A DNA stretch of 64,000 nucleotides from a virus (taxonomy: Duplodnaviria; Heunggongvirae; Uroviricota; Caudoviricetes): IMG/VR virus record IMGVR_UViG_3300029511_000167. One strand, written 5' to 3'. The position numbers and the translations under genes were made by a program. Of this stretch, positions 1-61,751 are shown piece by piece. How positions within the stretch are numbered: position 1 is the stretch's first letter; every line of letters begins with the position of its first letter. The notes beneath the pieces are model-generated. The model saw only the letters and a program-made list of their open reading frames with translations. It was not told the origin of the DNA and made no database searches.

Positions 1-2397
1 TTATAAAATGAGTTCTTTTACCAGCTCCCGTTTGATGCTGAAATTGTTGCCGTCTACATCCACCACGTATTTCTCTGCTGGAGAACCGTCAATAATTTCT
101 TTTACAAACTGCCGTTTAATCTTATCATTAATCAGTCTCTGCAGATTTCTGGCTCCGTACTCGTATGAAGTTCCATCTTCTGCGATCTTTTCAATACAGT
201 TTCTGGTAAATGTTACCTCAATGTCTTTTTTCGCTAATTTACTCTTCAGGTCTGCTAGTTCCTTTTCTGCCACCATGATAGACATTTCTTTGTTTAATCC
301 ATTAAATGTAACAATGGAATCTAAACGGTTGCGGAACTCAATGGAGAATAACCGGTTTACAGCCTCTGAAATTGCATCATGATTTACAGTTTCCACATTT
401 CCAAATCCGATTGCCGGTTTTGTAGCGTCTGCTACACCTGCGTTGGAAGTCATAATCACAATCAACTGCCTGCAGTCTACCTTATGTCCCTTGCTATCTG
501 TAATCATTCCGTAATCAAACATCTGAAGGAACGTTTTAAAGATATCTGGATGAGCTTTTTCAATCTCATCTAAGAGCAGTACCGCATGAGGTGTTTTTAA
601 AATAGCATCTGTCATCAATCCTCCGTCATCGTATCCAACATATCCGGCAGGAGAGCCAAATAACTTAGCTACTGAATGTGCTTCTGAATACTCAGACATA
701 TCAAATCGGATTAAAGAAAGAGACATTGCTTCTGCAATCTGTTTTGCAAGTTCTGTTTTTCCGACTCCGGAAGGTCCTACAAATAGGAATGTACCAATTG
801 GTTTATTGTCATTTCCCAGGCCGGATTTTGATAATTTAATCATTTCTGAAACTGCAGTAATAGCATTTTCCTGGCCAAATACATGTCGGTTTAACGTTTC
901 TTCCAGACTGGAAACCGTTTTTAAATCATCTTTTCCCATTGTTTTTTTCGGGATTTTGCAAACAGTGCTTACAATGTTCTCGATATCGGACTTAGTTACT
1001 TCTGGAACATGGCCTGGAGTTACATTGACATACGCGCCTGCCTCATCGATCATATCAATTGCTTTATCTGGAAGATACCTGTCATGGATATGTTTAGCTG
1101 TTAATTCAACTGCAGCTGCAATAGCATCCTCAGAATAGGTTACATGATGGTACTCTTCATAGTGCTCTTTTAATCCGTCCAGAATAGCGATAGCATCCTC
1201 AATAGAAGGCTCTTTAATCTCAATTTTCTGGAATCGTCTCATAAGAGCCGGATCCTTTTCAATAAACTGGGTATACTCCTTATAAGTCGTAGCACCAATG
1301 AATTTAATTTTGCTGTCAGTGAGATACGGCTTTAAGATATTAGCAGCATCCATACTTCCGGTTCCACCGTTTCCTGCTCCAATTAACATGTGTATTTCAT
1401 CGATAAAGAGAATTGGCTTTTCCAGTTGATCCAGCTCATCAAGAACCGCTTTAATTCTGTTCTCAAAGTCGCCACGGTAACAGGTTCCCGCCAGTAATGC
1501 TGTCAAATCAAGTTCGTATAACTTGGACCCTTTTAAAATCTCAGGAACTTTATCTTCTGAAAGCATTTTAGCTAATCCCTTGGTTACCGCCGATTTTCCT
1601 ACACCAGGCTCACCTAAATGAAGCGGATTGGACTTATCCGCCTTACAGAGTACCTGCATGGTTCTCTGGATTACATCTTCTCGTCCAATAAACGGTTTGT
1701 GATAAGACTTTGCTTTTTCAATTAAGTCTACACAGTAGTTTTTCAGGGCTTTCTTTGGTTTCTCTCCTGCTTCTTTTCTTGCGCCTGCCCGTTTCATGAT
1801 CTCCTCTTCTTCTCTTGCAGCTTCTTCTGCCTCTTTTTCATAGTCTTCTTTTTCTTTTGTGCAGCATCTTACAGTACGCTTTGTCATATCGATCTTATAC
1901 TGTCTATTCTTTAAATCGGAGAAATCTGGTTTCTCTGTTAAATCTCCATAAGCAACTAAGAGATTGGCAAATACTTCCATTTTATTGACTCCATTTGCTT
2001 CCATGAAGTCTTCTATATGAAGCTCATCATATTCCGCACAAAGGCCAAGAAATAAGTGGCCGACTGTAATATCCTCAGTATGAATTTTTCCATCCAGAAA
2101 GGTATGTACATTGTAAAGGATTTTATTACAAACAGCCGTTAAATCATATCCCATAAAACTTCCACTTGTTTTTTTCTCTGCTGGATAAGAATAAATGGTT
2201 GCACCCATTTTTGTGAGTCGTTTTAATGCATTCAGATCTCCTGTATAAGCTGTTACGAATTCTGGCTCCTCATACAGCTGCAGCAGCGCATGCGGAATTC
2301 CATAGGCAGTTAATTTACTTTTCTTTGCTGTTTCTTCTGTCTTATTTAAAATATTCATTGCTTTTGCATTTAATCTCATTCTTTTACTCCTCCTCAA
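1..2397 (-). CDS. clpA: ATP-dependent Clp protease ATP-binding subunit ClpA-like (two AAA+ modules)
   Basis: 798-aa ORF with two Walker A motifs (GEPGVGKSAV and GPSGVGKTELAK) and a ClpA-type N-domain. The start overlaps the upstream clpS stop. Confidence 0.85.
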   Translation of the reverse strand: MRRSKRMRLNAKAMNILNKTEETAKKSKLTAYGIPHALLQLYEEPEFVTAYTGDLNALKRLTKMGATIYSYPAEKKTSGSFMGYDLTAVCNKILYNVHTFLDGKIHTEDITVGHLFLGLCAEYDELHIEDFMEANGVNKMEVFANLLVAYGDLTEKPDFSDLKNRQYKIDMTKRTVRCCTKEKEDYEKEAEEAAREEEEIMKRAGARKEAGEKPKKALKNYCVDLIEKAKSYHKPFIGREDVIQRTMQVLCKADKSNPLHLGEPGVGKSAVTKGLAKMLSEDKVPEILKGSKLYELDLTALLAGTCYRGDFENRIKAVLDELDQLEKPILFIDEIHMLIGAGNGGTGSMDAANILKPYLTDSKIKFIGATTYKEYTQFIEKDPALMRRFQKIEIKEPSIEDAIAILDGLKEHYEEYHHVTYSEDAIAAAVELTAKHIHDRYLPDKAIDMIDEAGAYVNVTPGHVPEVTKSDIENIVSTVCKIPKKTMGKDDLKTVSSLEETLNRHVFGQENAITAVSEMIKLSKSGLGNDNKPIGTFLFVGPSGVGKTELAKQIAEAMSLSLIRFDMSEYSEAHSVAKLFGSPAGYVGYDDGGLMTDAILKTPHAVLLLDEIEKAHPDIFKTFLQMFDYGMITDSKGHKVDCRQLIVIMTSNAGVADATKPAIGFGNVETVNHDAISEAVNRLFSIEFRNRLDSIVTFNGLNKEMSIMVAEKELADLKSKLAKKDIEVTFTRNCIEKIAEDGTSYEYGARNLQRLINDKIKRQFVKEIIDGSPAEKYVVDVDGNNFSIKRELVKELIL

Positions 2398-2695
2398 TTG
2401 TGAATTTTAAGTCACAATCATAATCTTTTGAAATTTCATTTGCTTTTAATACTTTTTTATTTGCCTCGAAATACGAATTTCCGCTGCATACCACCGCTTT
2501 TCCTTCTGTTTGGGCGATATCTATTATTTTTAGCGATTCTCCTAATGACTTACCAAACACTTCCTGTAAGATTGAAATTACAATATTAATAAGTGTCGTG
2601 TCGTCATTGTGTATAATAACGGAATAGGTCTGATCGAGCAAAATTTCTTCTTCAATCGTTGTTTCAGTTATTATTCTTGTTTTTTCACAAATCAT
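2384..2695 (-). CDS. clpS: Clp protease adaptor protein ClpS
   Basis: 103 aa. The VIIHNDDTTLINIVISILQEVFGKS block matches the ClpS core. It sits immediately upstream of clpA with a 14-nt overlap. Confidence 0.8.
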   Translation of the reverse strand: MICEKTRIITETTIEEEILLDQTYSVIIHNDDTTLINIVISILQEVFGKSLGESLKIIDIAQTEGKAVVCSGNSYFEANKKVLKANEISKDYDCDLKFTIEEE

Positions 2696-8677: not shown

Positions 8678-9475
8678 TTAATGTTCTGTATTCAGCTGCT
8701 CTTTCATTTTTACAAAGAAATCTCTGGTCTCATTTCTGTTTTTAAGCATTGCTGCTTTCTCATATTCTGAATATACATATGGTTCGTTCTTATTTAAATT
8801 ATTTAAGAAAGACAAGTCGATCTCGTCTTCCTCCGTTTCTTCTTCTTTTTTTGCCTTTTCACTGGCATCATCCAGGGTATCACTTTCTTCACCTATTGAT
8901 CGTACCCGTTTTCTTGAAGTATCATAATCAAAGCCGAACCAGGTCATTTCATATAAAATATTGGCGGCCACTTGGATTTCTCCATAGGTCCGAATTAAAG
9001 AATGAGGTATCTTATAAGTGATAACAGCTTTCCAGTCTTCCGCCATAAAATTATAGGTTGTAATTGGAAGCATTGCCTGTTTCATATCTTCCAATGTTTT
9101 GCAGACAGGAAACTGCTCTGGATCAAACTGTTTTAACTCCGCTTCATCAAATACGAACGTATCGTAACCGGTTGGGACTTCTAGGCCAGTCTCTTCTTCC
9201 AATTCATCATAGTATGGAACAATTCCTATGATGCAGGATTCGGTTTCTTTTCTTTGCTTCAGATTGCATATCTCACTGATGCACGTTTGTATTTTTCCTT
9301 TAAGGTCACTTGTTCCACAACTTAATTTTTCTTCCTTTGAAAGACTGGACGTATTGTGCTCCCGGTCGTAGCGCTCTATGATTTTTTCTGTACTGAAAAA
9401 GTTCGATACAAAATAATCGGCCAGTGTTTCTGGCTTTAATGCTTTAAATAGTTCCTGCACTGTAATGCTCTTCAT
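8678..9475 (-). CDS. hypothetical acidic protein
   Basis: 265-aa ORF. Motif agtatg lies at 9531-9536, upstream of the start. Confidence 0.5.
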   Translation of the reverse strand: MKSITVQELFKALKPETLADYFVSNFFSTEKIIERYDREHNTSSLSKEEKLSCGTSDLKGKIQTCISEICNLKQRKETESCIIGIVPYYDELEEETGLEVPTGYDTFVFDEAELKQFDPEQFPVCKTLEDMKQAMLPITTYNFMAEDWKAVITYKIPHSLIRTYGEIQVAANILYEMTWFGFDYDTSRKRVRSIGEESDTLDDASEKAKKEEETEEDEIDLSFLNNLNKNEPYVYSEYEKAAMLKNRNETRDFFVKMKEQLNTEH

Positions 9476-11477: not shown

Positions 11478-11507
11478 AAGAAAAACCGGTTAATACCGGT
11501 TTTTTTA
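11478..11507. terminator. bidirectional rho-independent terminator
   Basis: accggttaataccggt hairpin with an A-run before and a T-run after. It separates the plus-strand small ORFs from the convergent minus-strand tRNA array. Confidence 0.7.
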
Positions 11508-11579
11508 TGTTTCTGAAGAGATTCGAACTCTTAATGCCCAGTCCGTAGCAGGGCGGTTTTTCCATTAGCCTACAGAAAC
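11508..11579 (-). tRNA. tRNA-Arg(ACG)-like, with mismatches in the D and anticodon stems
   Basis: Acceptor GTTTCTG/CAGAAAC, T-arm AAGAG-TTCGAAT-CTCTT, anticodon loop CTACGGA. The anticodon stem CCCTG/CTGGG has one T-T mismatch. The D-stem is imperfect. Confidence 0.5.
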
Positions 11580-11583
11580 AAAC

Positions 11584-11663
11584 TGCCCATGAAGGGATTC
11601 AAACCCTTATGCGTTCGCGCTTGATTTTGAGTCAAGTATGTATACCAATTCCATCACATGGGC
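11584..11663 (-). tRNA. tRNA-Leu(CAA)
   Basis: Acceptor GCCCATG/CATGGGC, anticodon arm CTTGA-CTCAAAA-TCAAG, 11-nt variable arm, T-arm AAGGG-TTTGAAT-CCCTT. Confidence 0.8.
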
Positions 11664-11981
11664 ATGGACTACGATGATAGCTGGCAGCTTGAGATTCTTG
11701 TCTCCGAGATGAAAGCCCAAATTTTTAAAAAGATGAGGCGTGGAGTTACTCGCATTTAGGATTTCTTTAAATACAGGCTCACCACTTTGCACAGATAAGG
11801 CTTAAAAGGCCCTGTTTTTTTACAGCCATACTTTTACCATCAGCACATAGTTTTTCAGGTCCTGTCTGCTCCGCAGTTCATAGTTGTTAATTCCCTGCGT
11901 CTTTGCTTTCTACCAAATGTCCGTTTTGTGCTGTTTCCGAAACACCTCGTAGTTTTTTTGCCAAAGAGACCTCATCTTTAG

Positions 11982-12053
11982 AGCACCGTGTCAGAGTCGA
12001 ACTGACCAATTATGGTTTTGCAGACCATCTCCATTCCGCATGGATTACGATGC
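11982..12053 (-). tRNA. tRNA-Cys(GCA)
   Basis: Acceptor GCATCGT/ACGGTGC (one G-U pair), D-stem TCCA/TGGA, anticodon arm ATGGT-CTGCAAA-ACCAT, T-arm GTCAG-TTCGACT-CTGAC, discriminator U. Confidence 0.8.
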
Positions 12054-12072
12054 GCATATAAATATATTAAAC

Positions 12073-12152
12073 TGCCCGTGAAGGGATTCGAACCCTTATG
12101 CTTTCGCGCTTGATCCTAAGTCAAGTGTGTATACCAATTCCACCACACGGAC
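12073..12152 (-). tRNA. tRNA-Leu(TAG)
   Basis: Near-duplicate of the Leu(CAA) backbone with anticodon loop CTTAGGA. Acceptor GTCCGTG/CACGGGC. Confidence 0.8.
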
Positions 12153-12169
12153 ATGAGATGCAATGATAA

Positions 12170-12241
12170 TAGGCAGCCTGAGATTTGAGCTCAGAAGACT
12201 GGTTTTGGAGATCAGCATGTTACCGTTACATCAAACCACCC
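12170..12241 (-). tRNA. tRNA-Trp(CCA)-like, degenerate (acceptor stem has 3 Watson-Crick and 4 G-U pairs)
   Basis: Anticodon loop CTCCAAA (the typical Trp loop), T-arm CTGAG-CTCAAAT-CTCAG, D-stem ATGT/ACAT. The acceptor GGGTGGT/GGCTGCC pairs only with wobbles. It may be a pseudo-tRNA. Confidence 0.4.
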
Positions 12242-12246
12242 AAACA

Positions 12247-12319
12247 TGTGCCTAGCGGGAATTGAACCCGCGACCTCCGGATTAAAAGTCCGCTGCTCTT
12301 CCGACTGAGCTACAGGCAC
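12247..12319 (-). tRNA. tRNA-Lys(TTT)
   Basis: Acceptor GTGCCTG/TAGGCAC, D-arm TAGCTCAGTCGGAAGAGCA, anticodon loop CTTTTAA, T-arm GCGGG-TTCAATT-CCCGC. Confidence 0.8.
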
Positions 12320-12324
12320 ATAAA

Positions 12325-12397
12325 TGACCTCGGCGGGAATTGAACCCGGCATCTGAAGCTTGAAAGGCTTCTGTCCTAACCACTAGACCACGAGGCC
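12325..12397 (-). tRNA. tRNA-Glu(TTC)
   Basis: Acceptor GGCCTCG/CGAGGTC, anticodon arm GAAGC-CTTTCAA-GCTTC, T-arm GCCGG-GTTCAAT-TCCCGC. Confidence 0.8.
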
Positions 12398-12401
12398 GAA
12401 A

Positions 12402-12473
12402 TACGGCTGGTTGGATTTGAACCAACGAATACAGGAGTCAAAGTCCTGTGCCTTACCTCTTGGCGACAACCGT
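12402..12473 (-). tRNA. tRNA-Gln(TTG)
   Basis: Acceptor ACGGTTG/CAGCCGT, D-arm TCGCCAAGAGGTAAGGCA, anticodon arm CAGGA-CTTTGAC-TCCTG, T-arm GTTGG-TTCAAAT-CCAAC. Confidence 0.8.
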
Positions 12474-12479
12474 ATAAGA

Positions 12480-12563
12480 TACTCCTGAAGGGACTTGAAC
12501 CCTCACGAATTTGCATTCAACGGATTTTAAGTCCGTAGCGTCTGCCAATTCCGCCACAGGAGC
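12480..12563 (-). tRNA. tRNA-Leu(TAA)
   Basis: D-arm TGGCGGAATTGGCAGACGC, anticodon arm ACGGA-CTTAAAA-TCCGT, long variable arm, T-arm with TTCAAGT loop. 84 nt. Confidence 0.8.
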
Positions 12564-12897
12564 AAAAAAATCGGGCTGCACAAAGCAGCCCACGTCAGTA
12601 TGTATAGATTCAAAAAGAGAATTTGAAAATTATAACAGATACTGTGCTACGAAAGGACTTTGTGCGTTTTTAGCATCGACAAAGAGCCGCTCTTGTTTCA
12701 GAGTAGTTTTCTGTTCTTCTGATTTTAAGCAAACGTACAATCTTTTCATATTTTTTCAGCGGAGAAACCCATGGGCTTGCCCGTGGAAGGAACCGCCTCT
12801 AACCTACCTTTCTTTGTTCTATCAGATAATTAGTGTTTAATTCCTCACTCCGAAGAGTGGTTCATATTAACTCCTTTTTCTTGTTTCTTTAAGTCTC

Positions 12898-12997: not shown

Positions 12998-13777
12998 TTA
13001 TTGGTTCAAATTTTTCCTGTCGCGTGTGTATTCATACCTTTTTTGAGATTCGTTCAGCCAGTTTTGATATTTTTCTTTCTTTTCCTTCTTCTGTTCCCTT
13101 TCTATTTTTTTCTTTAACCAACGTATCGCAGTTCGATATGCACCTAGAAGCTCTTTTCGCATTACCCTGGACGTTTTAACGTCCTTTTCATACCGTGAAA
13201 CGGTTTTCTTCTCAAATTCTTCCATATGTTCTTCATACGCTTTTCGTTCTATTTCCGCATCTGGTTTTAAACTAGCATAAACACTCAGGCATTCGTTTTT
13301 CTCTTCTTCAGACAATTGACGAATTCCTAAAAGCAGTTTCTCCAGTTTTTTATTAACCGGCATGCAATCTTTTCGGTATCGGATTCGTTCAAGATAACAT
13401 AAGCGAAACTGTTCAATATAATCCATAGCATCTTCTTTCGTCTTAATTCGCAGCCAGTTGCCATAACGATTGATGCAGCGCTCCATTTTCTTCCAGTCTT
13501 TATTCGTTGTGTCCACCAGATCCTTAACATCTTTTAGACGTCCATCTCTTATGATGATAACTGTGTCTGGTTCAGGATACTCCCAAAAACTGTTGAGAAT
13601 CAGAATATTGAAGTTTTTCGTATAGTTGTACCAGCTCGTCCGATATGGAACTTTTTGGTTTTTCTGATAATATTTTAAGGATCCATTACTTTCCCATAAT
13701 GTTCCATCTGAAATATATGGAACCGGAAAACATTTAACTTGCTCATAGAGCATACAATCATACATTCCCATAATCAT
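12998..13777 (-). CDS. hypothetical protein
   Basis: 259-aa ORF with a K/E-rich C-terminus. A terminator-like hairpin lies downstream at 12975-13000. Confidence 0.5.
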   Translation of the reverse strand: MIMGMYDCMLYEQVKCFPVPYISDGTLWESNGSLKYYQKNQKVPYRTSWYNYTKNFNILILNSFWEYPEPDTVIIIRDGRLKDVKDLVDTTNKDWKKMERCINRYGNWLRIKTKEDAMDYIEQFRLCYLERIRYRKDCMPVNKKLEKLLLGIRQLSEEEKNECLSVYASLKPDAEIERKAYEEHMEEFEKKTVSRYEKDVKTSRVMRKELLGAYRTAIRWLKKKIEREQKKEKKEKYQNWLNESQKRYEYTRDRKNLNQ

Positions 13778-18821: not shown

Positions 18822-19727
18822 TTATGAGCGCTCTGGTTCTGTATTTGATAAGCTTTCTGAATGGTTCCTGGTTTCTAATGACAGCTCCTTCTTGGTATCA
18901 GAAATCATCCCATCCAGTGCACTTAAAGGTTCTTTCGTATACTCATAGAGAAAATCTTTAAGAACTGAGTAATACTTTGCCTGCTCTTTTTCAAAAAACT
19001 GGCAAAGTTCTTTGTACTCTTTTTTGGTTTGAGCCGTATTGAGTGCATGATAGTATTCAAGCTTATTCTCATCCTGAATAATAACGGGAATGATGTCAGA
19101 CGCAAGGCATTCCCGAAGCAGCAGCAGGCGGCCGGTTCTTCCGTTTCCATCTTGAAATGGATGAATGGTTTCATATGCAGCGTGAAACCTAGCCAAGCCT
19201 TCCACTGTATGTTTCTTTTCCGGGTCATAGTTTTGTAACAGTTCTTTCATCCGGTCGGAAACCTCATCTGGCCTTGCTGTTTTAATATTTGCAACCTGGT
19301 TTAATCGATTCTTATACTCTCCTACTGGATAACCATTTGCCAAATCTTCGAAGACTCCTGATTTTAATCGAAAATGAAATTTCTTTATCAGGTCTTCGGA
19401 TAGCGGTTCATGAAGAGTCTTAAGCATCTCATTGAACATAGCGAAATGTCCTGTCATCTCTTCAATGTCTTTCGCCTTAAAAATTTCTCCATCAGCCAGT
19501 ATCGTTCCTGTATCAAACAGAGACGCGGTCTGATCTGGAGTTAAGGTACTGCCTTCAATCTTATTGGAGTTATATGCCATTAGTTTTTGTGTTTTTGCAT
19601 AAATTCCACTCCGATCCATCTTTTCATGTTCAATTTTGAATCGTTCTTTTAACTGCTTTACCAGCGTTTCTTCATCATAAGTAGATAACTCATGAAAAGA
19701 GTTTTCTAAGATTTTATTAATATTCAT
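18822..19727 (-). CDS. fic: Fic family protein (AMPylase-type, with SxxxEG inhibitory motif)
   Basis: Canonical Fic motif HPFQDGNGRTGR. N-terminal SNKIEGS matches the [S/T]xxxE[G/N] autoinhibitory helix. Confidence 0.8.
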   Translation of the reverse strand: MNINKILENSFHELSTYDEETLVKQLKERFKIEHEKMDRSGIYAKTQKLMAYNSNKIEGSTLTPDQTASLFDTGTILADGEIFKAKDIEEMTGHFAMFNEMLKTLHEPLSEDLIKKFHFRLKSGVFEDLANGYPVGEYKNRLNQVANIKTARPDEVSDRMKELLQNYDPEKKHTVEGLARFHAAYETIHPFQDGNGRTGRLLLLRECLASDIIPVIIQDENKLEYYHALNTAQTKKEYKELCQFFEKEQAKYYSVLKDFLYEYTKEPLSALDGMISDTKKELSLETRNHSESLSNTEPERS

Positions 19728-19738
19728 GTTGATACTCC

Positions 19739-21205
19739 TTATCGTTCTATCTCTTCTTTTTCCAATTTCCCTGTTTCCATCTGGTCAATGATTTGTGTTA
19801 GTTTTTTTGAAAAGTCATGGAGAGATTCGTACTTTAATAAGAATGTTCCAAACGCCAACTCTTCATCATTTTCTTTCACATTTAATTCTTTCGTTTTTCC
19901 ATCGACACAAAAAGTCAGCTCTGGAACCTGCTTTGGAATAATCTCAAGCTCCAGGTTTCCATCTTCTTTTTCGTTTATGAAGCAGGTACCCATCAGACTC
20001 TTCTCAATGGAAGCTTTGATTTTTTCCAGATAGGTTTCCTGTTCTGAAACGTCTTTCTTTTCTGGTTTTGGTTTTTCTGGTTCCATATCTGGAATGAATA
20101 CGTCTTTTGTATATAAGGTTTCTTTAAAAAGCAGTGCAGCTGCCTGTTTATGAATCAGTTCTTCCAACCACTTGACTCGTTTTTTTGAAAAGTTTAAATC
20201 TCCCTGGAAGGAAAACTCGAAGTCTTTTAACGAAATTAAGTCTTTTCTGATTTCGCTTGTCACGGCCAGCTGCCCGACTCGGGTAAAATCGTCTCCGATT
20301 CGTGGGCCATATTCCAGAAGTTTTGTTCCAATTTTTGTGAACTCATCTTCTTCCACATAAGGAAGCATAGCCATATTTAAGTCAAAAACTGGAGCCATTT
20401 TAATTGGCTCTAATGTGTCGTTATGAATCAGAATTCCATAATTTCCCAGATGCCTGTCAACGTTAAAGGTTAATGCATCCAGCACCAGCATCCTTCGAAA
20501 GGTATCTTCTGAACCGATTGATGAAAAATACTGTAACACAGTATCCAGTGTCTTATTTTCCAGTGGAATTTTCGCCATAGGCACGTAGCCATATGTCTCA
20601 TTGGTAAATAATTGGCATTTTGTAGCGAGTTTTCCATGAAGCTTAACCAAATGATACGGAACGCATCCCGGACACAGCTGCAGCGCAATCTCAGACGCCA
20701 AGGCTTCGCAGTATGGCTCCAGTCCTGCATTTCTGGCTCCTTCCGAGCCTCTCTTGTAAAGAAAAATGCCATCGCTTTCTTTTTTCCAGCACTTTTTAAA
20801 GGAACCTTCTGTGGAAAGTTCTGGAGATGTATCAGAAAATTGAAAGTCCTGGAGACCTACACCTTCAAACGCCAGCTTTGAAATGATTTCATTGAATTCA
20901 TTTTGATAGAGAGAAACATCTTCCCATTTAAGAGTTTCATTTTCTGTTTTAACCCAAAACGTATCGTTTAAGGATGCGGCATGAGTGACTTGAATAAATC
21001 CAGACGTGGTACCACAGCCGCACTCTTCCATGATTTTTCGAATACTGGCATTGTGTTTTGAGGCTTTCCTATTTTCAAGCCATTCATTGATCTCATTCAT
21101 ACCAATGGGTAGTTTTCCAGATATTTCATCAAACACATAGTTTTCTGCTAACACTCCAGCGTCATGAAATTTTGCCACAATCTGGTTCTTGTTCATCAAA
21201 AACAT
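19739..21205 (-). CDS. HipA-like Ser/Thr kinase family protein
   Basis: LDALTFNVDRHLGNYGILI resembles the HipA catalytic-loop region. It is a paralog of 54029..55084 (shared SWEDI..QN.F block). ATG start MFLMNK with RBS gaggaggaaa. Confidence 0.6.
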   Translation of the reverse strand: MFLMNKNQIVAKFHDAGVLAENYVFDEISGKLPIGMNEINEWLENRKASKHNASIRKIMEECGCGTTSGFIQVTHAASLNDTFWVKTENETLKWEDVSLYQNEFNEIISKLAFEGVGLQDFQFSDTSPELSTEGSFKKCWKKESDGIFLYKRGSEGARNAGLEPYCEALASEIALQLCPGCVPYHLVKLHGKLATKCQLFTNETYGYVPMAKIPLENKTLDTVLQYFSSIGSEDTFRRMLVLDALTFNVDRHLGNYGILIHNDTLEPIKMAPVFDLNMAMLPYVEEDEFTKIGTKLLEYGPRIGDDFTRVGQLAVTSEIRKDLISLKDFEFSFQGDLNFSKKRVKWLEELIHKQAAALLFKETLYTKDVFIPDMEPEKPKPEKKDVSEQETYLEKIKASIEKSLMGTCFINEKEDGNLELEIIPKQVPELTFCVDGKTKELNVKENDEELAFGTFLLKYESLHDFSKKLTQIIDQMETGKLEKEEIER

Positions 21206-21238
21206 AGCTTTCCTCCTCAAAACATCAATTCTATGTCA

Positions 21239-23026: not shown

Positions 23027-23878
23027 TTATGTTCTGTTTTCCTGTTTCCATCCGTTTGAACAAACGCCATTTTCATAGAGAACCAACTGTTCATTACTTT
23101 TATTTTTTGTTAGCAGCCGCAGACTTTTCACAAAGTCAGCCGCAGAAGCCCGCAGCATTGGATTCACTAAAAAGCAGGAACGCTTAAGCGTTATCAAAAG
23201 CGGATGCCCTGGCAGCTGCAGCTGCGTCTGACACCCATATGCGAATGGACTTTTGTACTTCACACCGTATGCTTTTTCAAATGATACATAAAGGTCTTTT
23301 TCAAATTGAAGTTCGTTAATCTTAACATGCTGAACGCCACACTCTTCCATTTTTTTTAGAAATGCATCAATTTCTTCTTTGGTATCAATCTGACCTTTTA
23401 TGAGGTTTATTGATACCCGTACTTTGTCAGCATAAGCGTTGCAAATTTTCTTTGTTAAGGCAATCCTGTCATGTCTTGATGAAGCATGAAGAATGTCATT
23501 ATTTTTCTCTGGATCATAATGCTGCAAAGAAATATTAAGACCATCAATGTAGTCCATAATTTTTGTAAATGTATTCCAGTTATCTTCTACCGTCTTTGGC
23601 AAAGAAGTTGTAACATAGATATGATCCACAAAGGATCTGATTCCTCTTACATACAGCAGCAGCTCATGCGGCAGCAGAAGCGGTTCTCCACCAAGAACCA
23701 AAATCTCTTTTTTTCCTGTTTTAATGGTTTCCATGATTAGCCGGTTTACATCGGTTTTCTCGCCTTTCACTCCATTTCGCTCAATACAAAACGGACAGGT
23801 GTTATCGCACCTCTTTGTAAAGCGAACGTCCAGGCTATCTTTATAAAAACCATCACATGAATTATTAAATGAAATCAT
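23027..23878 (-). CDS. radical SAM domain protein (CX3CX2C; viperin/MoaA-like N-terminal layout)
   Basis: FTKRCDNTCPFCIE near the N-terminus and LVLGGEPLL. Nine Cys in total. The RBS aaaggag lies directly after the stop of the upstream micro-ORF. Confidence 0.7.
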   Translation of the reverse strand: MISFNNSCDGFYKDSLDVRFTKRCDNTCPFCIERNGVKGEKTDVNRLIMETIKTGKKEILVLGGEPLLLPHELLLYVRGIRSFVDHIYVTTSLPKTVEDNWNTFTKIMDYIDGLNISLQHYDPEKNNDILHASSRHDRIALTKKICNAYADKVRVSINLIKGQIDTKEEIDAFLKKMEECGVQHVKINELQFEKDLYVSFEKAYGVKYKSPFAYGCQTQLQLPGHPLLITLKRSCFLVNPMLRASAADFVKSLRLLTKNKSNEQLVLYENGVCSNGWKQENRT

Positions 23879-25778: not shown

Positions 25779-27028
25779 TTATTTTGTGTCAGGTGTTTCA
25801 TCTGCTTTTTCTTCAGCAGCATTTTTCTCTTTTCCAGCTTCTTCTACTTTCTTCTTTTCCACTGGTTTCTTTTCTTCCTTTGCTTTTTCTGACCTTTCTT
25901 CTTCTTTTACGGTCTCTTCCAGAATGTCCGCTGCAATTGCTTTTTTCGCTGGGTCTGAATCTAGATCTGTTAGTCCGGTCAAATTGATGTTTCGTGTTAC
26001 CTTCGCATCATAAGAATCCGCTCTCATAATTTCAGCCAGATCCACACCGGTTGTCTCTTTCATAGACTCAAACAGCTTCATCATAACGGCAGGAACATTG
26101 CCAGCAATCGCATCCACAGAGTCATTGCTGCTGCCGCCGCCAATGATTGTAATCTTATCAATCTGGGATAATGGTTCTGCAATTTTTCCTGCAATTTCAG
26201 GAAGAACCTTAATCATCATCTCGGCCATGGCAACCTTGTTGTATTTCTGATAAGCTTCTGCTTTCTTTTCCATTGCTTCCGCTTCCGCAATACCTTTCGC
26301 CTGGATCGCAGCCGCCTCCGCTTCACCTTTTGCACGGATTCCTTCTGCTTCCTGAAGCATCGCGTATTTGTCTGCTTCGGCCTGGGCTCTTCTTGCTTCG
26401 GCATCTTTTTCCTGCTCATATTTCTTTGCTTCGGCTTCTCTCTGACGTTTTGCAAGAGTTGCAGCAGCTTCCTGCTCTACTTTATATCGCTCTGCGTCTG
26501 CTTTTCGGTTGATTTCTGCTTCCAGTCTCTGCTGTTCTACTTCAACCTGCTGCCGGTTTAACTCGGCTTCTCTCTCTGCTCTTGCAATCTGTGCATTTAC
26601 AGTAGTCGTCTGAATGGTCTTTTCCTGCATCTGCGCCTGAATCTTATACGCAGCATCAGCCTCAGCCAGTTTCGCATCCGCCAGTTTTTTCAGCTCTGCT
26701 TTCTTGATTTCCAGCTCATTATTTTTCTGGGCAATCTCTGTCTGAGCCATTACTTTTGCATCATTCGCAGCCTTATCCGCCTCCGCCTGAGCAATAGCAA
26801 CGTCACGTTCTGCCTGCGCTCTTGCAATGGAAGCATCTTTCTTGATTTTGGCTGTATTATCTGCACCCAGATCTCGAATGAGACCATTTTCATCTGTTAC
26901 ATTCTGGATGTTGCAGGATAAGATTTCAATTCCCAGTTTTGCCATGTCCTTGGAAGCTTTTTCCATTACCTGGTCAGAGAAAGAATCTCGATCTGTATTG
27001 ATAGCTTTTAATGATAATGTACCGATGA
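25779..27028 (-). CDS. floT: flotillin (FloT/YuaG-like) exon 2, the C-terminal two thirds
   Basis: An EA-rich flotillin repeat region plus the conserved KVLPEIA...IDKITIIGGGS block. The reading frame continues upstream of the annotated M to the intron junction. Confidence 0.75.
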
Positions 27029-27764: not shown

Positions 27765-28158
27765 TCTCTCTCATGTTTCCCTGCAGGGAATCTTTAAGCT
27801 CCATAGCAATGTCATCTGGATTTTTGTTTAAAAAGTTCTTAGCAGCCAGCTTAATGCCATTTGGCGTCTGTTCGATACGAACTTTTGCAACTGCGTCTAC
27901 ATCCACATTAATAAAGTCATTGGTTGGAACCGGTTCTCCTGTTTTAATATCGACTGTCATCTGCCCTAAGTACAGGCGATCCAGTCTCTCTAAAAACGGG
28001 ATTCGGATGCCGGAACGGCCAATCAGGATTTTCGGTTCTTTTTTAAGTCCAGAAATAATAAATGCCTTATCCGGTGGTGCCTTGACATACCCAAGGGCGG
28101 CAATAATAATTAAAAAGATAATGAGTGCTGCACCAAGCAGCCAGAATGAAATTTTCAT
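27765..28158 (-). CDS. floT: flotillin (FloT/YuaG-like) exon 1, N-terminal TM helix plus start of SPFH domain
   Basis: MKISFWLLGAALIIFLIIIAALGYVKAPPDKAFIISGL matches the flotillin N-terminus. RBS aaaaggagaaaagcat. Confidence 0.75.
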
Positions 28159-30622: not shown

Positions 30623-32803
30623 TTATTTTTCTTCTGTTTTCTGTTTTCTTTTTTCATAAAGTTTCCTGACATGGCAGATATTGCTGCTTGGATCGTTAAG
30701 CTGAATGATTCCTTTTTCCAGTAATTCTTTTGCAAATACAATGAATCTGAAATCATCTGCTGATAATGCAGCCATATTTAGCAGCTGCAGCCGCCCAAGC
30801 AGGCCGCGTCTGCGTTTCCATGTCTTATAGTAGTTTAATTTGAGTTTGAACATGAAGTGGTTTGTATCTTCAAGCACAAACCCTTCAATGGGCTTTCCAT
30901 TATAGGTGTATGTACCATTCTGATCCGATTTTAGCAGGTTCTGATACCAGGCATCAAATTCATCGTAGGTGTTAAACTTAAATACCAGCTTTTTCGGCTG
31001 CAGATGGTAGGCAGCTGCAAAGGCCAATAGCTCTTCATAGCTTTTTTTCTGGAAATCAAACTCGTTTTTAATGATATCCAGAAGATAGACCTCGCTGTCT
31101 TCATAATCGATGATATGCGGGTCGTTTACCTGGTCCACACACTCAAAGACCAGCGTTTCAGAATGTTCTTTCAGATACTTCTTTAATGATTCTATCGTTT
31201 CTTCTGAAAGTTTCTTATAAAGCATATCTTTAAAACAGCCTGCGGCTTTTCCCGTCGGATCTGATTTTGTGGTGATAAACAGCTCATCTTTTTCTTTGTT
31301 AAAGCTTACCATACCAAGAAATCCATTTTCTTTAACATACGCTTCTACTGGAAATACCAGTTTTTCTTTCAGATTATGATACATGGTTTCTTCTACTTCG
31401 TCTACAGCGAAAAACTTATCATATCCACGACAGACCAGTTCTTCTGTTTTTGTATTAAGGTAAAGTCCACGGGCCTTGACCGTTCGTTCATTCCATACCC
31501 GGTTATTGAAAGCTTCCCTTGAAAAATTAAAAGAAGAAATCGAATCAAACTTTTTTTCTTTAATGTACGGGTCTTTTCTTAAGGTTTCAATTGCATCATG
31601 AACTGTTGAAAAATCAGTTTCCGGCTTTCGGTATACGGTGTTTCTAATTTCAGTTGTTTCTATCCCAGCAGCAGAGACAACAGCAGCCCGCAAGAAGCCG
31701 CCAAGTTCTACTTTTCCTTCTAGATTGTAGTTTCGATTGGTAGAATGAACTGGATAGCCAAAATTTCGATGTCCGTGAATCTGGTAGATATGATTGGGCA
31801 TGGATGCATCAAACATTTCTTCGGCTTCTTTTACATCAGGATAACCGCCAACACCGTGGATCATCTGTTCGGTAGAAAGAAAGATTGGATTTCCAGGAAT
31901 GGTACTTACACCGCCATGGCAGCCAAAGACAACTTTATCGTGATAGCGGTAGTATACACACTGAGCAAGCTTTCGATAAAAAATACGTACTTCTTTTTTT
32001 GAAATACCTGCTGCTTCCAGTTCTTTTGCCGTATGCTCCTCAAATTCTTTTGACGGAGTATGCTCATTATGTGCCCATAGGTGTAACCACCGCTCATGAT
32101 TTCCTTCCAGCAGCAGAACATTTTCTCTTTTTGAAAGGTTCATCATAAGTTTTAAAGTGTTCACATTATCTGGGCCGCGATCCAGATAGTCGCCATGGAA
32201 AATGTAAAACTCATCTTCTTTCAGTCCGCCTTTAAGATAACACTGCAATGCGTCAAAGCACCCGTGAATATCTCCAATGTGGTGGATCTTCTTATATTTA
32301 CTGAAATCCAGCGGCATAAGCAGCAGTTTTTCAAACTCATCTGGCTTGATAAATGGAAAATCTGCATAAAACGGCAGCTGCAGCCACTTACAAAACTTTT
32401 CCATCACCTCATCTGGCACTTGTTCTACCTGGCTGCGGCTACGGTTGCGGCGCATCGCATCTGCGAGGCTAATATCCGTAAAATCCACACCTATAATGCG
32501 GTAGCGATAGGTTTTTGCAAGGGTGCGATACTTATTTACATCTTTCTGAAGAATATTAGTGGCGTCAATGATTAAAAATTCACCTCGCGCCATTCTCTTT
32601 TCTGCAATCTTTGTTAGAAGCTCCCACACTTCCTTATCGTTCATTCGGGATGTTTTAATCCTTCCATCAATACCCAACACTGGGCCTTCATAAAGTCTTC
32701 GAATAGTATCTGAGCTTAATGTATAAGGCTCCAGCTGGTGTTCTTTTATCCAGGTTGTTTTTCCAGAAGCTGGAATTCCTCTAAGTAATACTAGTGTTCT
32801 CAT
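30623..32803 (-). CDS. pnkp: polynucleotide kinase-phosphatase Pnkp with C-terminal ligase-like nucleotidyltransferase domain (RNA end-healing/sealing enzyme)
   Basis: N-terminal P-loop LRGIPASGKTT, as in a 5' kinase. Central calcineurin-type phosphoesterase motifs IGDIHGC, GDYLDRGP and GNHE. C-terminal covalent-NTase-like motifs EGFVLED and FKLKL. No hen1 gene is adjacent. Confidence 0.75.
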   Translation of the reverse strand: MRTLVLLRGIPASGKTTWIKEHQLEPYTLSSDTIRRLYEGPVLGIDGRIKTSRMNDKEVWELLTKIAEKRMARGEFLIIDATNILQKDVNKYRTLAKTYRYRIIGVDFTDISLADAMRRNRSRSQVEQVPDEVMEKFCKWLQLPFYADFPFIKPDEFEKLLLMPLDFSKYKKIHHIGDIHGCFDALQCYLKGGLKEDEFYIFHGDYLDRGPDNVNTLKLMMNLSKRENVLLLEGNHERWLHLWAHNEHTPSKEFEEHTAKELEAAGISKKEVRIFYRKLAQCVYYRYHDKVVFGCHGGVSTIPGNPIFLSTEQMIHGVGGYPDVKEAEEMFDASMPNHIYQIHGHRNFGYPVHSTNRNYNLEGKVELGGFLRAAVVSAAGIETTEIRNTVYRKPETDFSTVHDAIETLRKDPYIKEKKFDSISSFNFSREAFNNRVWNERTVKARGLYLNTKTEELVCRGYDKFFAVDEVEETMYHNLKEKLVFPVEAYVKENGFLGMVSFNKEKDELFITTKSDPTGKAAGCFKDMLYKKLSEETIESLKKYLKEHSETLVFECVDQVNDPHIIDYEDSEVYLLDIIKNEFDFQKKSYEELLAFAAAYHLQPKKLVFKFNTYDEFDAWYQNLLKSDQNGTYTYNGKPIEGFVLEDTNHFMFKLKLNYYKTWKRRRGLLGRLQLLNMAALSADDFRFIVFAKELLEKGIIQLNDPSSNICHVRKLYEKRKQKTEEK

Positions 32804-41920: not shown

Positions 41921-41957
41921 CGCAAAAAAAAGCACCAAACAGGTGCTTTTTCTTTTT

Positions 41958-60683: not shown

Positions 60684-61751
60684 TTATGGCTCTTTTCTTA
60701 AATCGTATAGGACAAACTCAGTCATCATATCCGAAATTTTCTTCATATTCGGTTCTTTTGGAAGTACAGAATGCTCAAATGCATAAGCGACTGCTTTTTT
60801 AATATCTTCTACCATCTGAAAATATTCGTTTCGCACATGGCCGTCTGAGCTTAAAAACATTCCATTAAGAATATCTGTGAACATTGGAATGTCTTCATTC
60901 CTGCAAATCCTGACTTTTCCTGTTTCCAGTGTTTCAATACTGGTTAACATACCACGAATCGTATGCATCATCAGCTTATTGAGTTTTCTCCTTTCCCTTT
61001 CCAGATCTTCTTCCTTTGAACTTGCTTCCTTTACATTTTCTTTCTTTTCAAAATTTCCACTGATATGCTTTAGATCTCTGGCAACTTCGAAAAAATCTTC
61101 GACTGATACATCTTGCAAGGTCATGGATGCGATTCTTATTTTTTCTTCTGCTTCTGGGATTTTAAATTGAATCTTCATATTATCTGATTGGATGGTTGAA
61201 TATCTGGTATGAAAATGGCAGGTCGCATTGTTTAGAATACTGAGCTTTAAGCTATCTTTTTCTTTTTTCTTTTCAGCCAGTTTTCCGAGCTCAGCAAGTT
61301 CTATTCTTCGCAGCTGCGACTGCACATAGCCCATGCAGCTGCGATAGATTCCGTTTGCGCAGAGAAAATCGGTGTGCTTTTCTATTAATTCTGTTCCAAG
61401 GTCTGATAAGTACAGGTACTGATCCTTTTCTTGCCCTATGTACGCCAAAATGTCAGGATTTCCTTTTGAAAGCAAGTGTAACATTTTCCGGTATGAATGA
61501 ATAACAGTATCTGATGAGCTGAATGTCTTTGTTTCCCAATCAGCCGCAGCACCATTCGCATACGCCGGTTCCAAACCAACGATTCCGCGCACATCGATAT
61601 CGCTTTCAGAATAATTCGTTCCATACGCATAAGATCCGCTGACGCAGAGCAGATGCAGGTGGTTTTTAACTTTTTCAGATTCCCGGAATTCCTGGTATTC
61701 TTTTCCTGTTTGAATTAAATTTTTAATTTCGTTTAATGTGTTATTATCCAA
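60684..61751 (-). CDS. nucleotidyltransferase-fold protein (Pol-beta-type GS...DxD motif)
   Basis: LLCVSGSYAYGTNYSESDIDVRGIV matches the minimal NTase signature hG[GS]x9-13Dh[DE]h. Confidence 0.55.
   Translation of the reverse strand: MDNNTLNEIKNLIQTGKEYQEFRESEKVKNHLHLLCVSGSYAYGTNYSESDIDVRGIVGLEPAYANGAAADWETKTFSSSDTVIHSYRKMLHLLSKGNPDILAYIGQEKDQYLYLSDLGTELIEKHTDFLCANGIYRSCMGYVQSQLRRIELAELGKLAEKKKEKDSLKLSILNNATCHFHTRYSTIQSDNMKIQFKIPEAEEKIRIASMTLQDVSVEDFFEVARDLKHISGNFEKKENVKEASSKEEDLERERRKLNKLMMHTIRGMLTSIETLETGKVRICRNEDIPMFTDILNGMFLSSDGHVRNEYFQMVEDIKKAVAYAFEHSVLPKEPNMKKISDMMTEFVLYDLRKEP

What the first reader, a model, noticed from the sequence alone, without database searches (positions are those of the whole stretch)
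11508..12563. Nine-gene tRNA array in a phage-like region: Lys(UUU), Glu(UUC), Gln(UUG), three Leu isoacceptors, Cys, plus degenerate Arg(ACG)- and Trp(CCA)-like tRNAs
The array encodes the three tRNAs whose U34 carries xm5s2U in bacteria (Lys-UUU, Glu-UUC, Gln-UUG). These are classic targets of anticodon nucleases such as PrrC and RloC. Leu(CAA) and Leu(TAG) are near-identical backbone copies differing mainly in the anticodon, which suggests recent duplication and retargeting. The Arg(ACG)-like copy has a mismatch in the anticodon stem. The Trp-like copy has an acceptor stem that pairs only through four G-U wobbles. A complete end-healing/sealing enzyme (Pnkp, 30623-32803) lies 18 kb away. 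This is the configuration expected for a phage that replaces or repairs host tRNAs cleaved by anticodon-nuclease defences. The mismatched copies could be decoy or nuclease-resistant variants.
Basis: partly seen in the sequence, partly recalled or inferred. Interest (0 to 1): 0.6.

Follow-up and report, generated by a model that had tools for sequence, protein, structure and literature searches.

The report
tRNA gene cluster on a prophage-like island
A low-GC mobile island in a human-gut Lachnospiraceae bacterium carries nine tightly packed tRNA genes that match the codons the island uses far more than its host; this is a known phage strategy, and one of the nine genes is visibly decaying.

Summary
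Nine tRNA genes lie on the minus strand at 11508-12563: Leu-UAA, Gln-UUG, Glu-UUC, Lys-UUU, a Trp-CCA-like gene, Leu-UAG, Cys-GCA, Leu-CAA and Arg-ACG. The reported mismatches are real. The 726-aa kinase/phosphatase/RNA-ligase at 30623-32803 is also real.

The array sits on a foreign island of at least 85 kb and 37.5% GC. The island is inserted next to purL in 'Clostridiaceae bacterium Marseille-Q3526', whose flanking genes are about 50% GC. Island-free strains have an empty site.

The tRNA set is best explained by codon supply. The nine tRNAs decode codons ranked 1, 2, 3, 5, 7, 8, 10, 11 and 13 of 61 by island-over-host enrichment (p≈0.0002).

The Trp-like gene is a decaying allele, not a decoy. 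A canonical version exists in a sister haplotype. The window copy has four changes at critical positions and has lost its cloverleaf fold.

The island does carry a phage-type RNA-repair kit: the ligase fusion, RlaP, a Thg1-like enzyme and Macro/PARG-type domains. A secondary role against tRNA-cleaving defences is therefore plausible but untested.

'Pnkp' is a functional analogy only; the protein fails the bacterial Pnkp model. This is a new member of a known kind and of modest interest.

The parts
12572..12592 (-). G+C-rich hairpin with a T-run that abuts the 5' end of the first tRNA. It is probably the terminator or attenuator of the upstream operon. No convincing promoter lies between it and the upstream gene.
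   Evidence: terminator-like site TGGGCTGCTTTGTGCAGCCCG + ATTTTTTT; sequence
12480..12563 (-). tRNA-Leu(UAA), type II with a long variable arm; reads UUA
   Evidence: (55.7 bits). A compensatory C4-G69 to U-A change separates the haplotypes.
12402..12473 (-). tRNA-Gln(UUG); reads CAA
   Evidence: (65.6 bits)
12325..12397 (-). tRNA-Glu(UUC); reads GAA
   Evidence: (60.3 bits); identical in all loci
12247..12319 (-). tRNA-Lys(UUU); reads AAA
   Evidence: (70 bits)
12170..12241 (-). Degenerating tRNA-Trp(CCA) allele. It has a 1-nt insertion at the acceptor/D junction, an A30.C40 mismatch, C54, and A73 instead of G73. Four G.U pairs in the acceptor stem are shared with the intact allele.
   Evidence: 33.1 bits; not called by ARAGORN; comparison with L011 and L001 alleles
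12073..12152 (-). tRNA-Leu(UAG) with G37; reads CUA (and CUG). Paralogue of Leu(CAA).
   Evidence: (57.4 bits)
11982..12053 (-). tRNA-Cys(GCA) with the U73 discriminator and an unusual A8/U14 arrangement
   Evidence: (44.3 bits); cloverleaf is the minimum-energy fold; identical in 13 loci
11664..11981 (-). 316-nt spacer. Its last ~80 nt (about 11665-11745) are the relic of a second Trp-like copy from the [Trp + Leu] duplication. The rest has no detectable fold, ORF or family.
   Evidence: (z = -0.21)
11584..11663 (-). tRNA-Leu(CAA) with A37; reads UUG. Paralogue of Leu(UAG).
   Evidence: (58 bits)
11508..11579 (-). tRNA-Arg(ACG), with the Firmicute-type anticodon loop CUACGGA. It has U30.U40 and C12.A23 mismatches. 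As I34 it would read CGU, CGC and CGA.
   Evidence: (50.8 bits); identical in 13 loci
11479..11506 (.). Bidirectional intrinsic terminator that closes the array
30623..32803 (-). Associated function on the same island: a phage-type trifunctional RNA end-healing and sealing enzyme (P-loop polynucleotide kinase, calcineurin-type phosphoesterase and Rnl1/Trl1-type ligase)
   Evidence: Pfam; PHROG 8238, 3e-195; 41% identity over the full length to SPbeta-like phages; PDB tRNA ligase hits
60684..61751 (-). Associated function: RlaP-family (RNA-ligase-associated Pol-beta) nucleotidyltransferase
   Evidence: PF10127; phrog_388

Best explanation
The segment is a genuine, tightly packed cluster of nine tRNA genes, probably co-transcribed. 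Eight look functional. The ninth, Trp, is decaying in this allele.

The cluster is optional cargo on a foreign mobile island of at least 85 kb and 37.5% GC. The island is inserted just downstream of purL in a human-gut Lachnospiraceae whose own genes are about 50% GC. It is most likely a large temperate phage of the SPbeta / C. difficile AR1086-1 architectural class.

The main job of the array is codon supply. It provides the U34, C34 and I34 tRNAs for the A/U-rich codons AAA, GAA, CAA, UUA, UUG, CUA, CGA and UGU. The island's genes use these codons heavily. The host prefers AAG, GAG, CAG and CUG and uses them rarely, so it presumably stocks the matching tRNAs poorly.

Shown: the genes, their structures, the mobile context, the GC and codon contrast, the match between anticodons and enriched codons, and the decay of Trp.

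Inferred: expression, aminoacylation, low host supply of these tRNAs, and phage identity.

A secondary role is plausible and not exclusive. The array could buffer the element against tRNA-depleting defences, working with the island's RNA-repair enzymes.
For: - The genes are real.
- The island is absent from the host reference genome and from other strains, which have an empty purL-argCJB site. There is an att-like ~130-nt duplication at the left junction.
- The island is 0.375 GC and the host flank is about 0.50.
- The codons read by the nine tRNAs rank 1, 2, 3, 5, 7, 8, 10, 11 and 13 of 61 by island/host enrichment. AAA and GAA rank first and second in absolute excess. The permutation p is 0.0002 for strict Watson-Crick cognates. 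All three Leu isoacceptors match the three island-enriched Leu codons, and none matches the host-preferred CUG or CUC.
- Purifying selection acts on structure. There are compensatory or neutral changes only in Leu-UAA and Lys between haplotypes, and between the Leu paralogues.
- The only tRNA for a single-codon amino acid, Trp, is the one that decays. The host has its own intact tRNA-Trp gene.
- The preferred codons of the island and the host differ. This is the criterion that PMC10264068 uses to accept or reject codon compensation.
Against: - Host codon usage was estimated from only about 6,900 codons of flanking genes.
- The host tRNA gene complement is unknown, so low host supply is inferred and not shown.
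- Some strongly enriched codons have no tRNA in the array: UCA (rank 4), CCA (rank 6) and AGU (rank 9).
- An integrated element could in time ameliorate its codon usage instead.
- The co-resident RNA-repair genes argue that tRNA damage is also a selective pressure on this element.
- Distant relatives of the island lack the array, so it is not essential.
Confidence: 0.6

Rival explanations
1. The array exists chiefly to replace host tRNAs cleaved by anticodon nucleases (PrrC/RloC/PARIS/retron-type). The island tRNAs would be insensitive variants, and they would work with the healing-and-sealing enzyme.
For: - Lys-UUU, Glu-UUC and Gln-UUG are the xm5s2U tRNAs, and Arg tRNAs are colicin D targets (established knowledge).
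- The island carries a kinase-phosphatase-Rnl1 ligase, RlaP, a Thg1-like enzyme and Macro/PARG-like domains. A related element has RtcB.
- This combination is described as the counter-defence kit of large phages in PMC7824862.
- Single base-pair changes in the anticodon stem can confer resistance to AriB, which cuts between positions 40 and 41 (PMC11464382). Arg has a U30.U40 mismatch.
Against: - It explains at most four of the nine genes. Three Leu isoacceptors and Cys are not predicted.
- The anticodon loops are canonical. The Trp loop is identical to the host's, the Leu-CAA loop is identical to that of a related Lachnospiraceae, and the Arg loop equals the Firmicute consensus CUACGGA.
- No anticodon nuclease was identified among ten candidate defence/toxin proteins from the window (PADLOC).
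- The codon test accounts for all nine genes.
Confidence: 0.25
2. The mismatched Arg-like and Trp-like genes are purpose-built decoys or nuclease-resistant variants.
For: Both carry a non-Watson-Crick 30-40 pair in the anticodon stem. This is next to the AriB cleavage site reported in PMC11464382. The Arg mismatch is invariant in 13 loci.
Against: - For Trp, a canonical allele exists (L011/L099).
- The window allele differs from it by four changes at functionally critical sites: the 8-9 junction, the 30-40 pair, T54 and the G73 discriminator.
- Its Rfam score falls from 49.4 to 37.0 to 33.1 bits through an intermediate allele.
- The cloverleaf is no longer its minimum-energy fold.
- This is the signature of relaxed selection.
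- For Arg there is no variation at all, so invariance carries no information.
Confidence: 0.07
3. It is an ordinary host tRNA operon in conserved chromosomal context.
For: It lies on contigs of 1.46 and 3.51 Mb. The tRNAs have good covariance scores.
Against: - It is absent from the same species' reference genome and from other strains, at an otherwise identical site.
- The flanking gene has no relative in 185,579 species-representative genomes.
- GC is 12 points below the host's.
- The island Trp is only 62% identical to the host Trp.
- The surrounding genes are typical mobile-element cargo.
Confidence: 0.01
4. The array is hitch-hiking or decaying cargo with no current function.
For: One gene is decaying. 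A relic of another copy and a 316-nt inert spacer are present. Distant relatives do without the array.
Against: Between haplotypes, the other tRNAs show only compensatory or structure-neutral changes. Eight genes keep strong scores and near-cloverleaf folds. The match to codon demand is too good to be accidental.
Confidence: 0.07

Closest known systems
Codon-compensating tRNA genes of phages (Bailly-Bechet et al. 2007, as summarised in PMC10264068)
   Same: The tRNAs correspond to codons that the element uses much more than its host. The cause is a GC difference between element and host, here 37.5% against about 50%.
   Different: Here the carrier is an integrated island, presumably temperate, whereas phage tRNAs are commonest in virulent phages. 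The phage identity of the island is not proven.
tRNA provisioning plus RNA-repair kit of jumbo and large phages (Iyer, Anantharaman, Krishnan, Burroughs, Aravind 2021, PMC7824862, section 3.4.9)
   Same: tRNA genes co-occur with an RNA ligase, a polynucleotide kinase, a phosphoesterase, an RlaP nucleotidyltransferase, Thg1 and Macro-type domains on one element.
   Different: The components are dispersed over more than 60 kb and do not form an operon. The element is chromosomally integrated in a gut Lachnospiraceae. No function was tested.
Nuclease-insensitive phage tRNAs (T5 tRNA-Lys against PARIS, PMC11464382; T5 tRNA-Tyr against retron Eco7, PMC11555353; mycobacteriophage tRNAs, PMC10264068)
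   Same: It includes tRNA-Lys(UUU) and other U34 tRNAs, and the backbones are diverged from the host's.
   Different: No anticodon-loop substitution was found where a comparison was possible. No cognate nuclease is known in this host. The repertoire extends well beyond known targets.
T4 Pnkp + Rnl1 and bacterial Pnkp/Hen1 RNA repair
   Same: The same three chemistries are present: 5' kinase, 3' phosphoesterase and Rnl1-type sealing. The domain order is the same as in bacterial Pnkp.
   Different: - It is a single polypeptide of the phage family PHROG 8238.
- The phosphatase is calcineurin-type, as in bacterial Pnkp and unlike T4 (established knowledge).
- The ligase domain is closest to Trl1-type tRNA ligases.
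- It fails the NCBIfam bacterial Pnkp model, and there is no Hen1.
Large temperate Firmicute phages (SPbeta-like Bacillus phages; Clostridioides phage AR1086-1, 130 kb)
   Same: Both have a long co-oriented arm of small unknown genes interspersed with RNA-repair genes (RlaP-like, RtcB, kptA), IS605 and nucleotide-metabolism genes. The ligase is 41% identical to SPbeta-like homologues.
   Different: There is no nucleotide similarity to any INPHARED or IMG/VR record. No structural module was seen.

Membership tests
Mobile-element (phage-type) tRNA gene cluster | Several bona fide tRNA genes packed head to tail | tested here: met
   Nine genes lie in 1,057 nt. There are 8 ARAGORN calls and 9 Rfam RF00005 matches of 33-70 bits. 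Spacers are 2-18 nt apart from one 316-nt gap.
Mobile-element (phage-type) tRNA gene cluster | Located on an element that is absent from otherwise isogenic genomes | tested here: met
   Empty purL-argCJB sites occur in L019, L104 and L105. There is a GC contrast and an att-like duplication.
Mobile-element (phage-type) tRNA gene cluster | The carrier is a phage (virion or packaging genes present) | tested here: inconclusive
   No terminase, portal, capsid or integrase gene was seen in the window, in 7 kb to the left or in 20 kb to the right. The gene content resembles large Firmicute phages. The right end of the island was not reached.
Codon-compensating phage tRNAs | tRNAs match codons over-used by the element relative to the host | tested here: met
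   The cognate codons rank 1, 2, 3, 5, 7, 8, 10, 11 and 13 of 61, with permutation p = 0.0002.
Codon-compensating phage tRNAs | The host supply of those tRNAs is limiting | not testable with these tools
Only the host tRNA-Trp gene was seen.
Anticodon-nuclease-evading phage tRNAs | Substitutions in the anticodon loop or stem relative to the host isoacceptor, at the nuclease recognition or cleavage site | tested here: inconclusive
   Only Trp could be compared. Its loop CUCCAAA is identical to the host's, while the stem differs. The Leu-CAA loop is identical to that of a related Lachnospiraceae. The other seven have no host comparator.
Anticodon-nuclease-evading phage tRNAs | A cognate tRNA-cleaving defence in the host, and resistance of the element's tRNA to it | not testable with these tools
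   The host genome is not available. PADLOC scans of island proteins found no anticodon nuclease.
Bacterial Pnkp/Hen1 RNA repair system | Kinase, metallophosphoesterase and ligase domains in one polypeptide | tested here: met
   Pfam finds AAA_33 at residues 4-144, Metallophos at 172-298 and RNA_lig_T4_1 at 443-659.
Bacterial Pnkp/Hen1 RNA repair system | Scores above the curated cut-off of NCBIfam TIGR04075 (bacter_Pnkp) | tested here: not met
   It scores 76.4 bits against a cut-off of 750. Only residues 3-263 align. The CthPnkp ligase domain is not among the PDB hits; only its kinase domain appears (4gp7, E = 2.8e-5).
Bacterial Pnkp/Hen1 RNA repair system | Adjacent Hen1 methyltransferase partner | tested here: not met
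   The neighbours are a PARG-like TIGR02452 protein (29832-30611) and a 195-aa protein with no family hit (32885-33472).
Phage trifunctional RNA ligase (PHROG 8238) | Full-length match to the family profile and to phage homologues | tested here: met
   phrog_8238 matches at E = 3.2e-195 over residues 1-673. It is 41% identical over 91% of its length to SPbeta-like and Alicyclobacillus phage proteins.
tRNA array units (20 or more tRNA genes, at least 2 per kb; PMC4758250) | At least 20 tRNA genes | tested here: not met
   There are nine genes. The definition is taken from the abstract shown.

The most novel reading that the evidence does not exclude
The invariant oddities of the apparently functional genes are selected features that make these tRNAs poor substrates for tRNA-cleaving defences of gut Lachnospiraceae. 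These oddities are the U30.U40 pair in Arg-ACG next to the 40/41 site cut by Toprim tRNases, the A8/U14 swap in Cys, and the backbones diverged from the host's. On this reading the array, the kinase-phosphatase-Rnl1 ligase, RlaP and the Thg1-like enzyme together form a layered 'tRNA insurance' system of a temperate mega-element. Codon matching would then reflect which tRNAs the element can least afford to lose.
Probability: 0.15. Interest if true: 0.5.

Novelty: new member of a known kind. Interest (0 to 1): 0.3.

Why it matters
The finding shows that a simple quantitative test can separate the two current explanations for phage tRNAs: compare codon usage in the element with codon usage in the flanking host genes. 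In this case the classical explanation wins.

It documents tRNA gene birth and death inside a mobile element in three forms:
- an isoacceptor pair made by duplication and anticodon-plus-position-37 remodelling;
- gene conversion between the two copies;
- a three-step allelic series of a tRNA-Trp turning into a pseudogene.

It also flags a very large, uncatalogued, low-GC island in a common human-gut Lachnospiraceae that combines RNA-repair genes with candidate defence genes. None of this changes current understanding.

Tried and rejected
- **Known phage or IMG/VR matches.** Megablast and blastn of the region against INPHARED gave only single-tRNA hits. Exact and degenerate tRNA patterns, and two island proteins, found nothing in IMG/VR.
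- **GTDB scan.** The 259-aa neighbour has no relative in the species-representative genomes.
- **Reaching the island's right junction.** The JGI scan anchored on purL returned only empty sites. One walking step gave 10 kb more cargo with no hallmark gene.
- **More tRNA relics or a structured RNA in the 316-nt gap.** Local alignments gave z of 2 or less. Relaxed ARAGORN found no genes. The fold z-score was -0.21, there was no Rfam hit, and only short spurious ORFs were present.
- **Function of the 259-aa neighbour.** It has no Pfam, PHROG or NCBIfam hit. The AlphaFold model had pLDDT 56, so no fold search was run.
- **Absence of encoded CCA as a foreign signature.** The host Trp gene also lacks CCA, so this was dropped.
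- **tRNA-dependent lysogeny (PMC10865867).** The island integrates next to purL and not into a tRNA gene, so this was rejected.
- **Ordinary host operon.** The empty sites rule this out.
Full report

Yes. ARAGORN finds eight tRNA genes on the minus strand between 11507 and 12564. In order of transcription they are:
- Leu(UAA)
- Gln(UUG)
- Glu(UUC)
- Lys(UUU)
- Leu(UAG)
- Cys(GCA)
- Leu(CAA)
- Arg(ACG)

Rfam's tRNA model scores seven of them at 50.8-70 bits. It adds a ninth, weak gene at 12171-12240 between Lys and Leu(UAG): 33.1 bits against a gathering score of 29. A permissive scan also recovers Cys at 44.3 bits.

The genes are 2-18 nt apart, except for one 316-nt gap. A hairpin with a T-run abuts the first gene, and a strong bidirectional terminator follows the last.

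- Arg(ACG) has a U30.U40 mismatch, plus a C12.A23 mismatch in the D stem.
- The Trp-like gene's acceptor stem has four G.U pairs out of seven.
- Leu(CAA) and Leu(UAG) are 70/80 identical.
- The 726-aa ORF at 30623-32803 has P-loop kinase, calcineurin-type phosphoesterase and Rnl1-type ligase domains.

None of the nine genes encodes CCA. The host's own tRNA-Trp gene does not either, so that trait carries no information.

**2. Where does it sit?**

Almost every gene in the window is on the minus strand, and the GC content is 37.5%. Exact-protein look-ups place the array's neighbours on dozens of human-gut metagenome contigs, including ones of 1.46 and 3.51 Mb. The element is therefore chromosomal.

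Beyond the window's left edge lie a ClpS/ClpA-like pair, then PBECR4, IS elements and the host argC-argJ-argB operon. The argJ product is 100% identical to that of 'Clostridiaceae bacterium Marseille-Q3526'. This organism is close to Otoolea and [Clostridium] symbiosum.

In that reference genome, and in JGI contigs of the same species, purL is followed directly by the PBECR4-arg region, so the site is empty. The junction is about 340 bp to the left of window position 1. At that end the island carries a diverged copy (94% identical, about 135 nt) of the purL-distal sequence. This is the pattern expected from site-specific integration.

To the right, the island continues for at least 20 kb at the same low GC. 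That stretch holds Macro, Thg1-like and thymidine kinase genes, then FkbH, transketolase and aldo-keto-reductase genes. The island is therefore at least 85 kb long. The host flank is about 50% GC.

No relative of the array-flanking gene exists in 185,579 species-representative genomes or in IMG/VR. This refutes an 'ordinary host tRNA operon'.

**3. Is the island a phage?**

This is probable but not shown. I saw no terminase, portal, capsid, integrase or conjugation gene. The cargo, however, has its nearest relatives in large phages of Firmicutes.
- The ligase fusion matches PHROG 8238 at 3e-195. It is 41% identical over its full length to proteins of SPbeta-like Bacillus phages, with further homologues in Staphylococcus Twort-like phages.
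- The PcfJ-like protein has relatives in Bacillus siphophages of about 160 kb.
- The best RlaP match is in the 130-kb Clostridioides phage AR1086-1.

The annotated genome of AR1086-1 shows the same architecture. It has a long co-oriented arm of small unknown genes interspersed with kptA, an RlaP-like gene, RtcB, IS605 and nucleotide-metabolism genes.

The island also carries candidate defence cargo: a Fic protein matching PDC-S04, HipA-like kinases, an orphan JetD and an IetA-like ATPase. I therefore call it a prophage-like island.

**4. What is the array for?**

I compared codon usage in 58 island ORFs (15,377 codons) with host genes flanking the insertion site (6,915 codons). Ranked by island-over-host enrichment, the 61 sense codons begin CUA, CAA, CGA, UCA, UUG, CCA, AAA, UUA, AGU, GAA, UGU, UAU, UGG. 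The nine tRNAs read codons ranked 1, 2, 3, 5, 7, 8, 10, 11 and 13. CGA is read through I34, and UGU by wobble.

AAA and GAA rank first and second in absolute excess demand. A permutation test on the strict Watson-Crick cognates gives p = 0.0002.

The host prefers AAG, GAG, CAG and CUG, whereas the island prefers AAA, GAA and UUA. The three Leu isoacceptors match exactly the three Leu codons that are enriched in the island. This is classical codon compensation, driven by a GC gap between element and host. It accounts for all nine genes.

The paper that proposed the nuclease-evasion hypothesis rejected compensation for mycobacteriophages because phage and host preferred the same codons (PMC10264068). 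Here they do not.

**5. Are the mismatched copies decoys?**

For the Trp-like gene the evidence points the other way. Thirteen loci carry the array. Two of them (L011 and L099) have a version that ARAGORN calls tRNA-Trp. This version scores 49.4 bits and has:
- a regular junction between the acceptor stem and the D arm;
- a paired G30-C40;
- T54;
- the bacterial Trp discriminator G73.

Its minimum-energy fold is a cloverleaf.

One locus (L001) is an intermediate at 37.0 bits. The common allele, which includes the window, scores 33.1 bits. It has a 1-nt insertion, A30.C40, C54 and A73, and it no longer folds as a cloverleaf.

Between the same haplotypes, the other tRNAs change by 6 bits or less. 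They show only structure-neutral or compensatory substitutions, for example C4-G69 to U-A in Leu(UAA).

Trp has a single codon, and the host has its own intact tRNA-Trp gene a few kb upstream of purL. A redundant copy that drifts into a pseudogene is what codon supply predicts. The island Trp is only 62% identical to the host gene, yet its anticodon loop is the same.

The four G.U pairs are present in the intact allele too, so they are a lineage trait and not damage.

For Arg(ACG) and Cys, all 13 loci are identical. No evolutionary test is therefore possible. The Arg anticodon loop CUACGGA is the normal Firmicute form (my knowledge of the B. subtilis sequence).

**6. History of the array**

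The duplicated unit was [Trp-like + spacer + Leu]. A relic of the second Trp-like copy survives just upstream of Leu(CAA).

After the duplication, one Leu copy changed its anticodon at positions 34 and 36. It also changed position 37: G in the CUN reader and A in the UUR reader. This fits the usual modification rules for those positions (established knowledge). Two stem pairs changed by compensatory double substitutions.

In L011 the 5' acceptor strand of Leu(UAG) has been converted to the Leu(CAA) type, which creates an A5.C68 mismatch. The first 500 nt or so of the array are about 4% diverged between haplotypes, while the rest is identical. This indicates recombination inside the array.

More distant relatives of the island keep the flanking gene but have no array, so the array is optional cargo. 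The remaining 235 nt or so of the spacer has no detectable fold, ORF or family.

**7.

This part is reasonable. In the window the island encodes the kinase-phosphatase-ligase fusion, an RlaP nucleotidyltransferase and a PARG-like protein. Just beyond the window it encodes a Macro-domain protein and a Thg1-like enzyme. A related element has RtcB.

This combination, together with tRNA provisioning, is described as a counter-defence adaptation of large phages (PMC7824862). Phage tRNAs that neutralise PARIS or retron effectors are experimentally established (PMC11464382 and PMC11555353). A secondary protective role is therefore plausible.

It remains untested here. Only one host tRNA could be compared, and no anticodon nuclease was identified.

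'Pnkp' is a fair functional label but not a family assignment. The NCBIfam bacterial Pnkp model scores 76 bits against a cut-off of 750. The ligase domain's best matches among solved structures are Trl1-type tRNA ligases. No Hen1 gene is adjacent.

**8. Verdict**

This is a new member of a well-known kind: a tRNA cluster on a phage-like mobile element. The classical codon-supply role is the best-supported mechanism (confidence about 0.6). The anti-nuclease role is a secondary possibility (about 0.25 as the primary role). The 'decoy' idea is rejected for Trp and undecidable for Arg. Interest is modest at 0.3.

Noticed in passing
window 25779-28188 (-): An ORF-less group II intron of about 690 nt splits an SPFH/flotillin gene. 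Rfam finds D1-D4 at 27523-27717 (171 bits) and D5-D6 at 27029-27114. The 5' exon ORF (27748-28188) covers Band_7 positions 3-103. The 3' exon ORF (25779-26966) covers Band_7 positions 127-176 plus the Flot domain.
   Followed up: partly
window 41840-41921 (+) and surroundings 38-48 kb: A lone, weak tRNA-Ser(CGA) (35 bits, poor D arm) lies in a patch where the coding strand switches. The patch also holds half a Type I specificity subunit (40832-41455), a ParB-like gene (41958-42932), an orphan JetD3 (43746-44615) and an IS605 TnpB (46741-47850). It looks like a scar of nested insertions. UCG is not enriched in the island.
   Followed up: partly
about 340 bp left of window position 1; L011 14630-14906; L019 4410-4540: This is the left junction of the island. 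The island carries a diverged ~135-nt copy of the sequence downstream of host purL (an att-like duplication). Strains L019, L104 and L105 have empty sites, and L105 also lacks the PBECR4/IS segment.
   Followed up: yes
L014-L018 1-10000; L187 1-10000; L184-L186: Beyond the window's right edge the island continues with Macro, TM2/DUF2752, Thg1-like, CpXC and thymidine kinase genes. Then come FkbH, aldo-keto reductase, transketolase and MaoC genes, all at island-like GC. A related element carries RtcB, thymidylate kinase, Eco57I-type methyltransferases and four DUF4869 genes.
   Followed up: partly
window 18822-19727, 19739-21220, 54029-55084, 33500-34690, 23027-23878: The island carries candidate defence or toxin cargo. 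This includes a Fic protein (PADLOC PDC-S04, 8.8e-91), two HipA_C-like kinases (PDC-M03A), an IetA-like AAA ATPase and a weakly viperin-like radical SAM protein.
   Followed up: partly
window 55239-55886 (-) and L019 5020-5694: PBECR4 (Barnase/EndoU/colicin E5-D/RelE-fold RNase) paralogues occur on the island and on the host side of the insertion site.
   Followed up: no
window 1-2695 (-): A ClpS adaptor plus a ClpA/ClpB-like double-AAA ATPase (792 aa; phrog_4871 at 5e-220) form the last operon of the island. This is unusual cargo for a mobile element.
   Followed up: no
L011 1340-1421 compared with window 12073-12152: In the diverged haplotype, Leu(UAG) carries the 5' acceptor strand of its paralogue Leu(CAA), which gives an A5.C68 mismatch. 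Divergence between haplotypes is confined to the first ~500 nt of the array. Both facts point to gene conversion or recombination inside the array.
   Followed up: partly
window 12998-13777 (-); L102 3971-4747; L103 2487-3245: The 259-aa protein of unknown function next to the array has only six homologue clusters in 5.8 billion proteins. In distant relatives that lack any tRNA array, it sits beside RlaP-like or kinase-phosphatase-ligase genes. The structure prediction failed (pLDDT 56).
   Followed up: partly
window 8678-9475 and 39463-40017 (-): There are two DUF6557 paralogues on the island. Their function is unknown.
   Followed up: no
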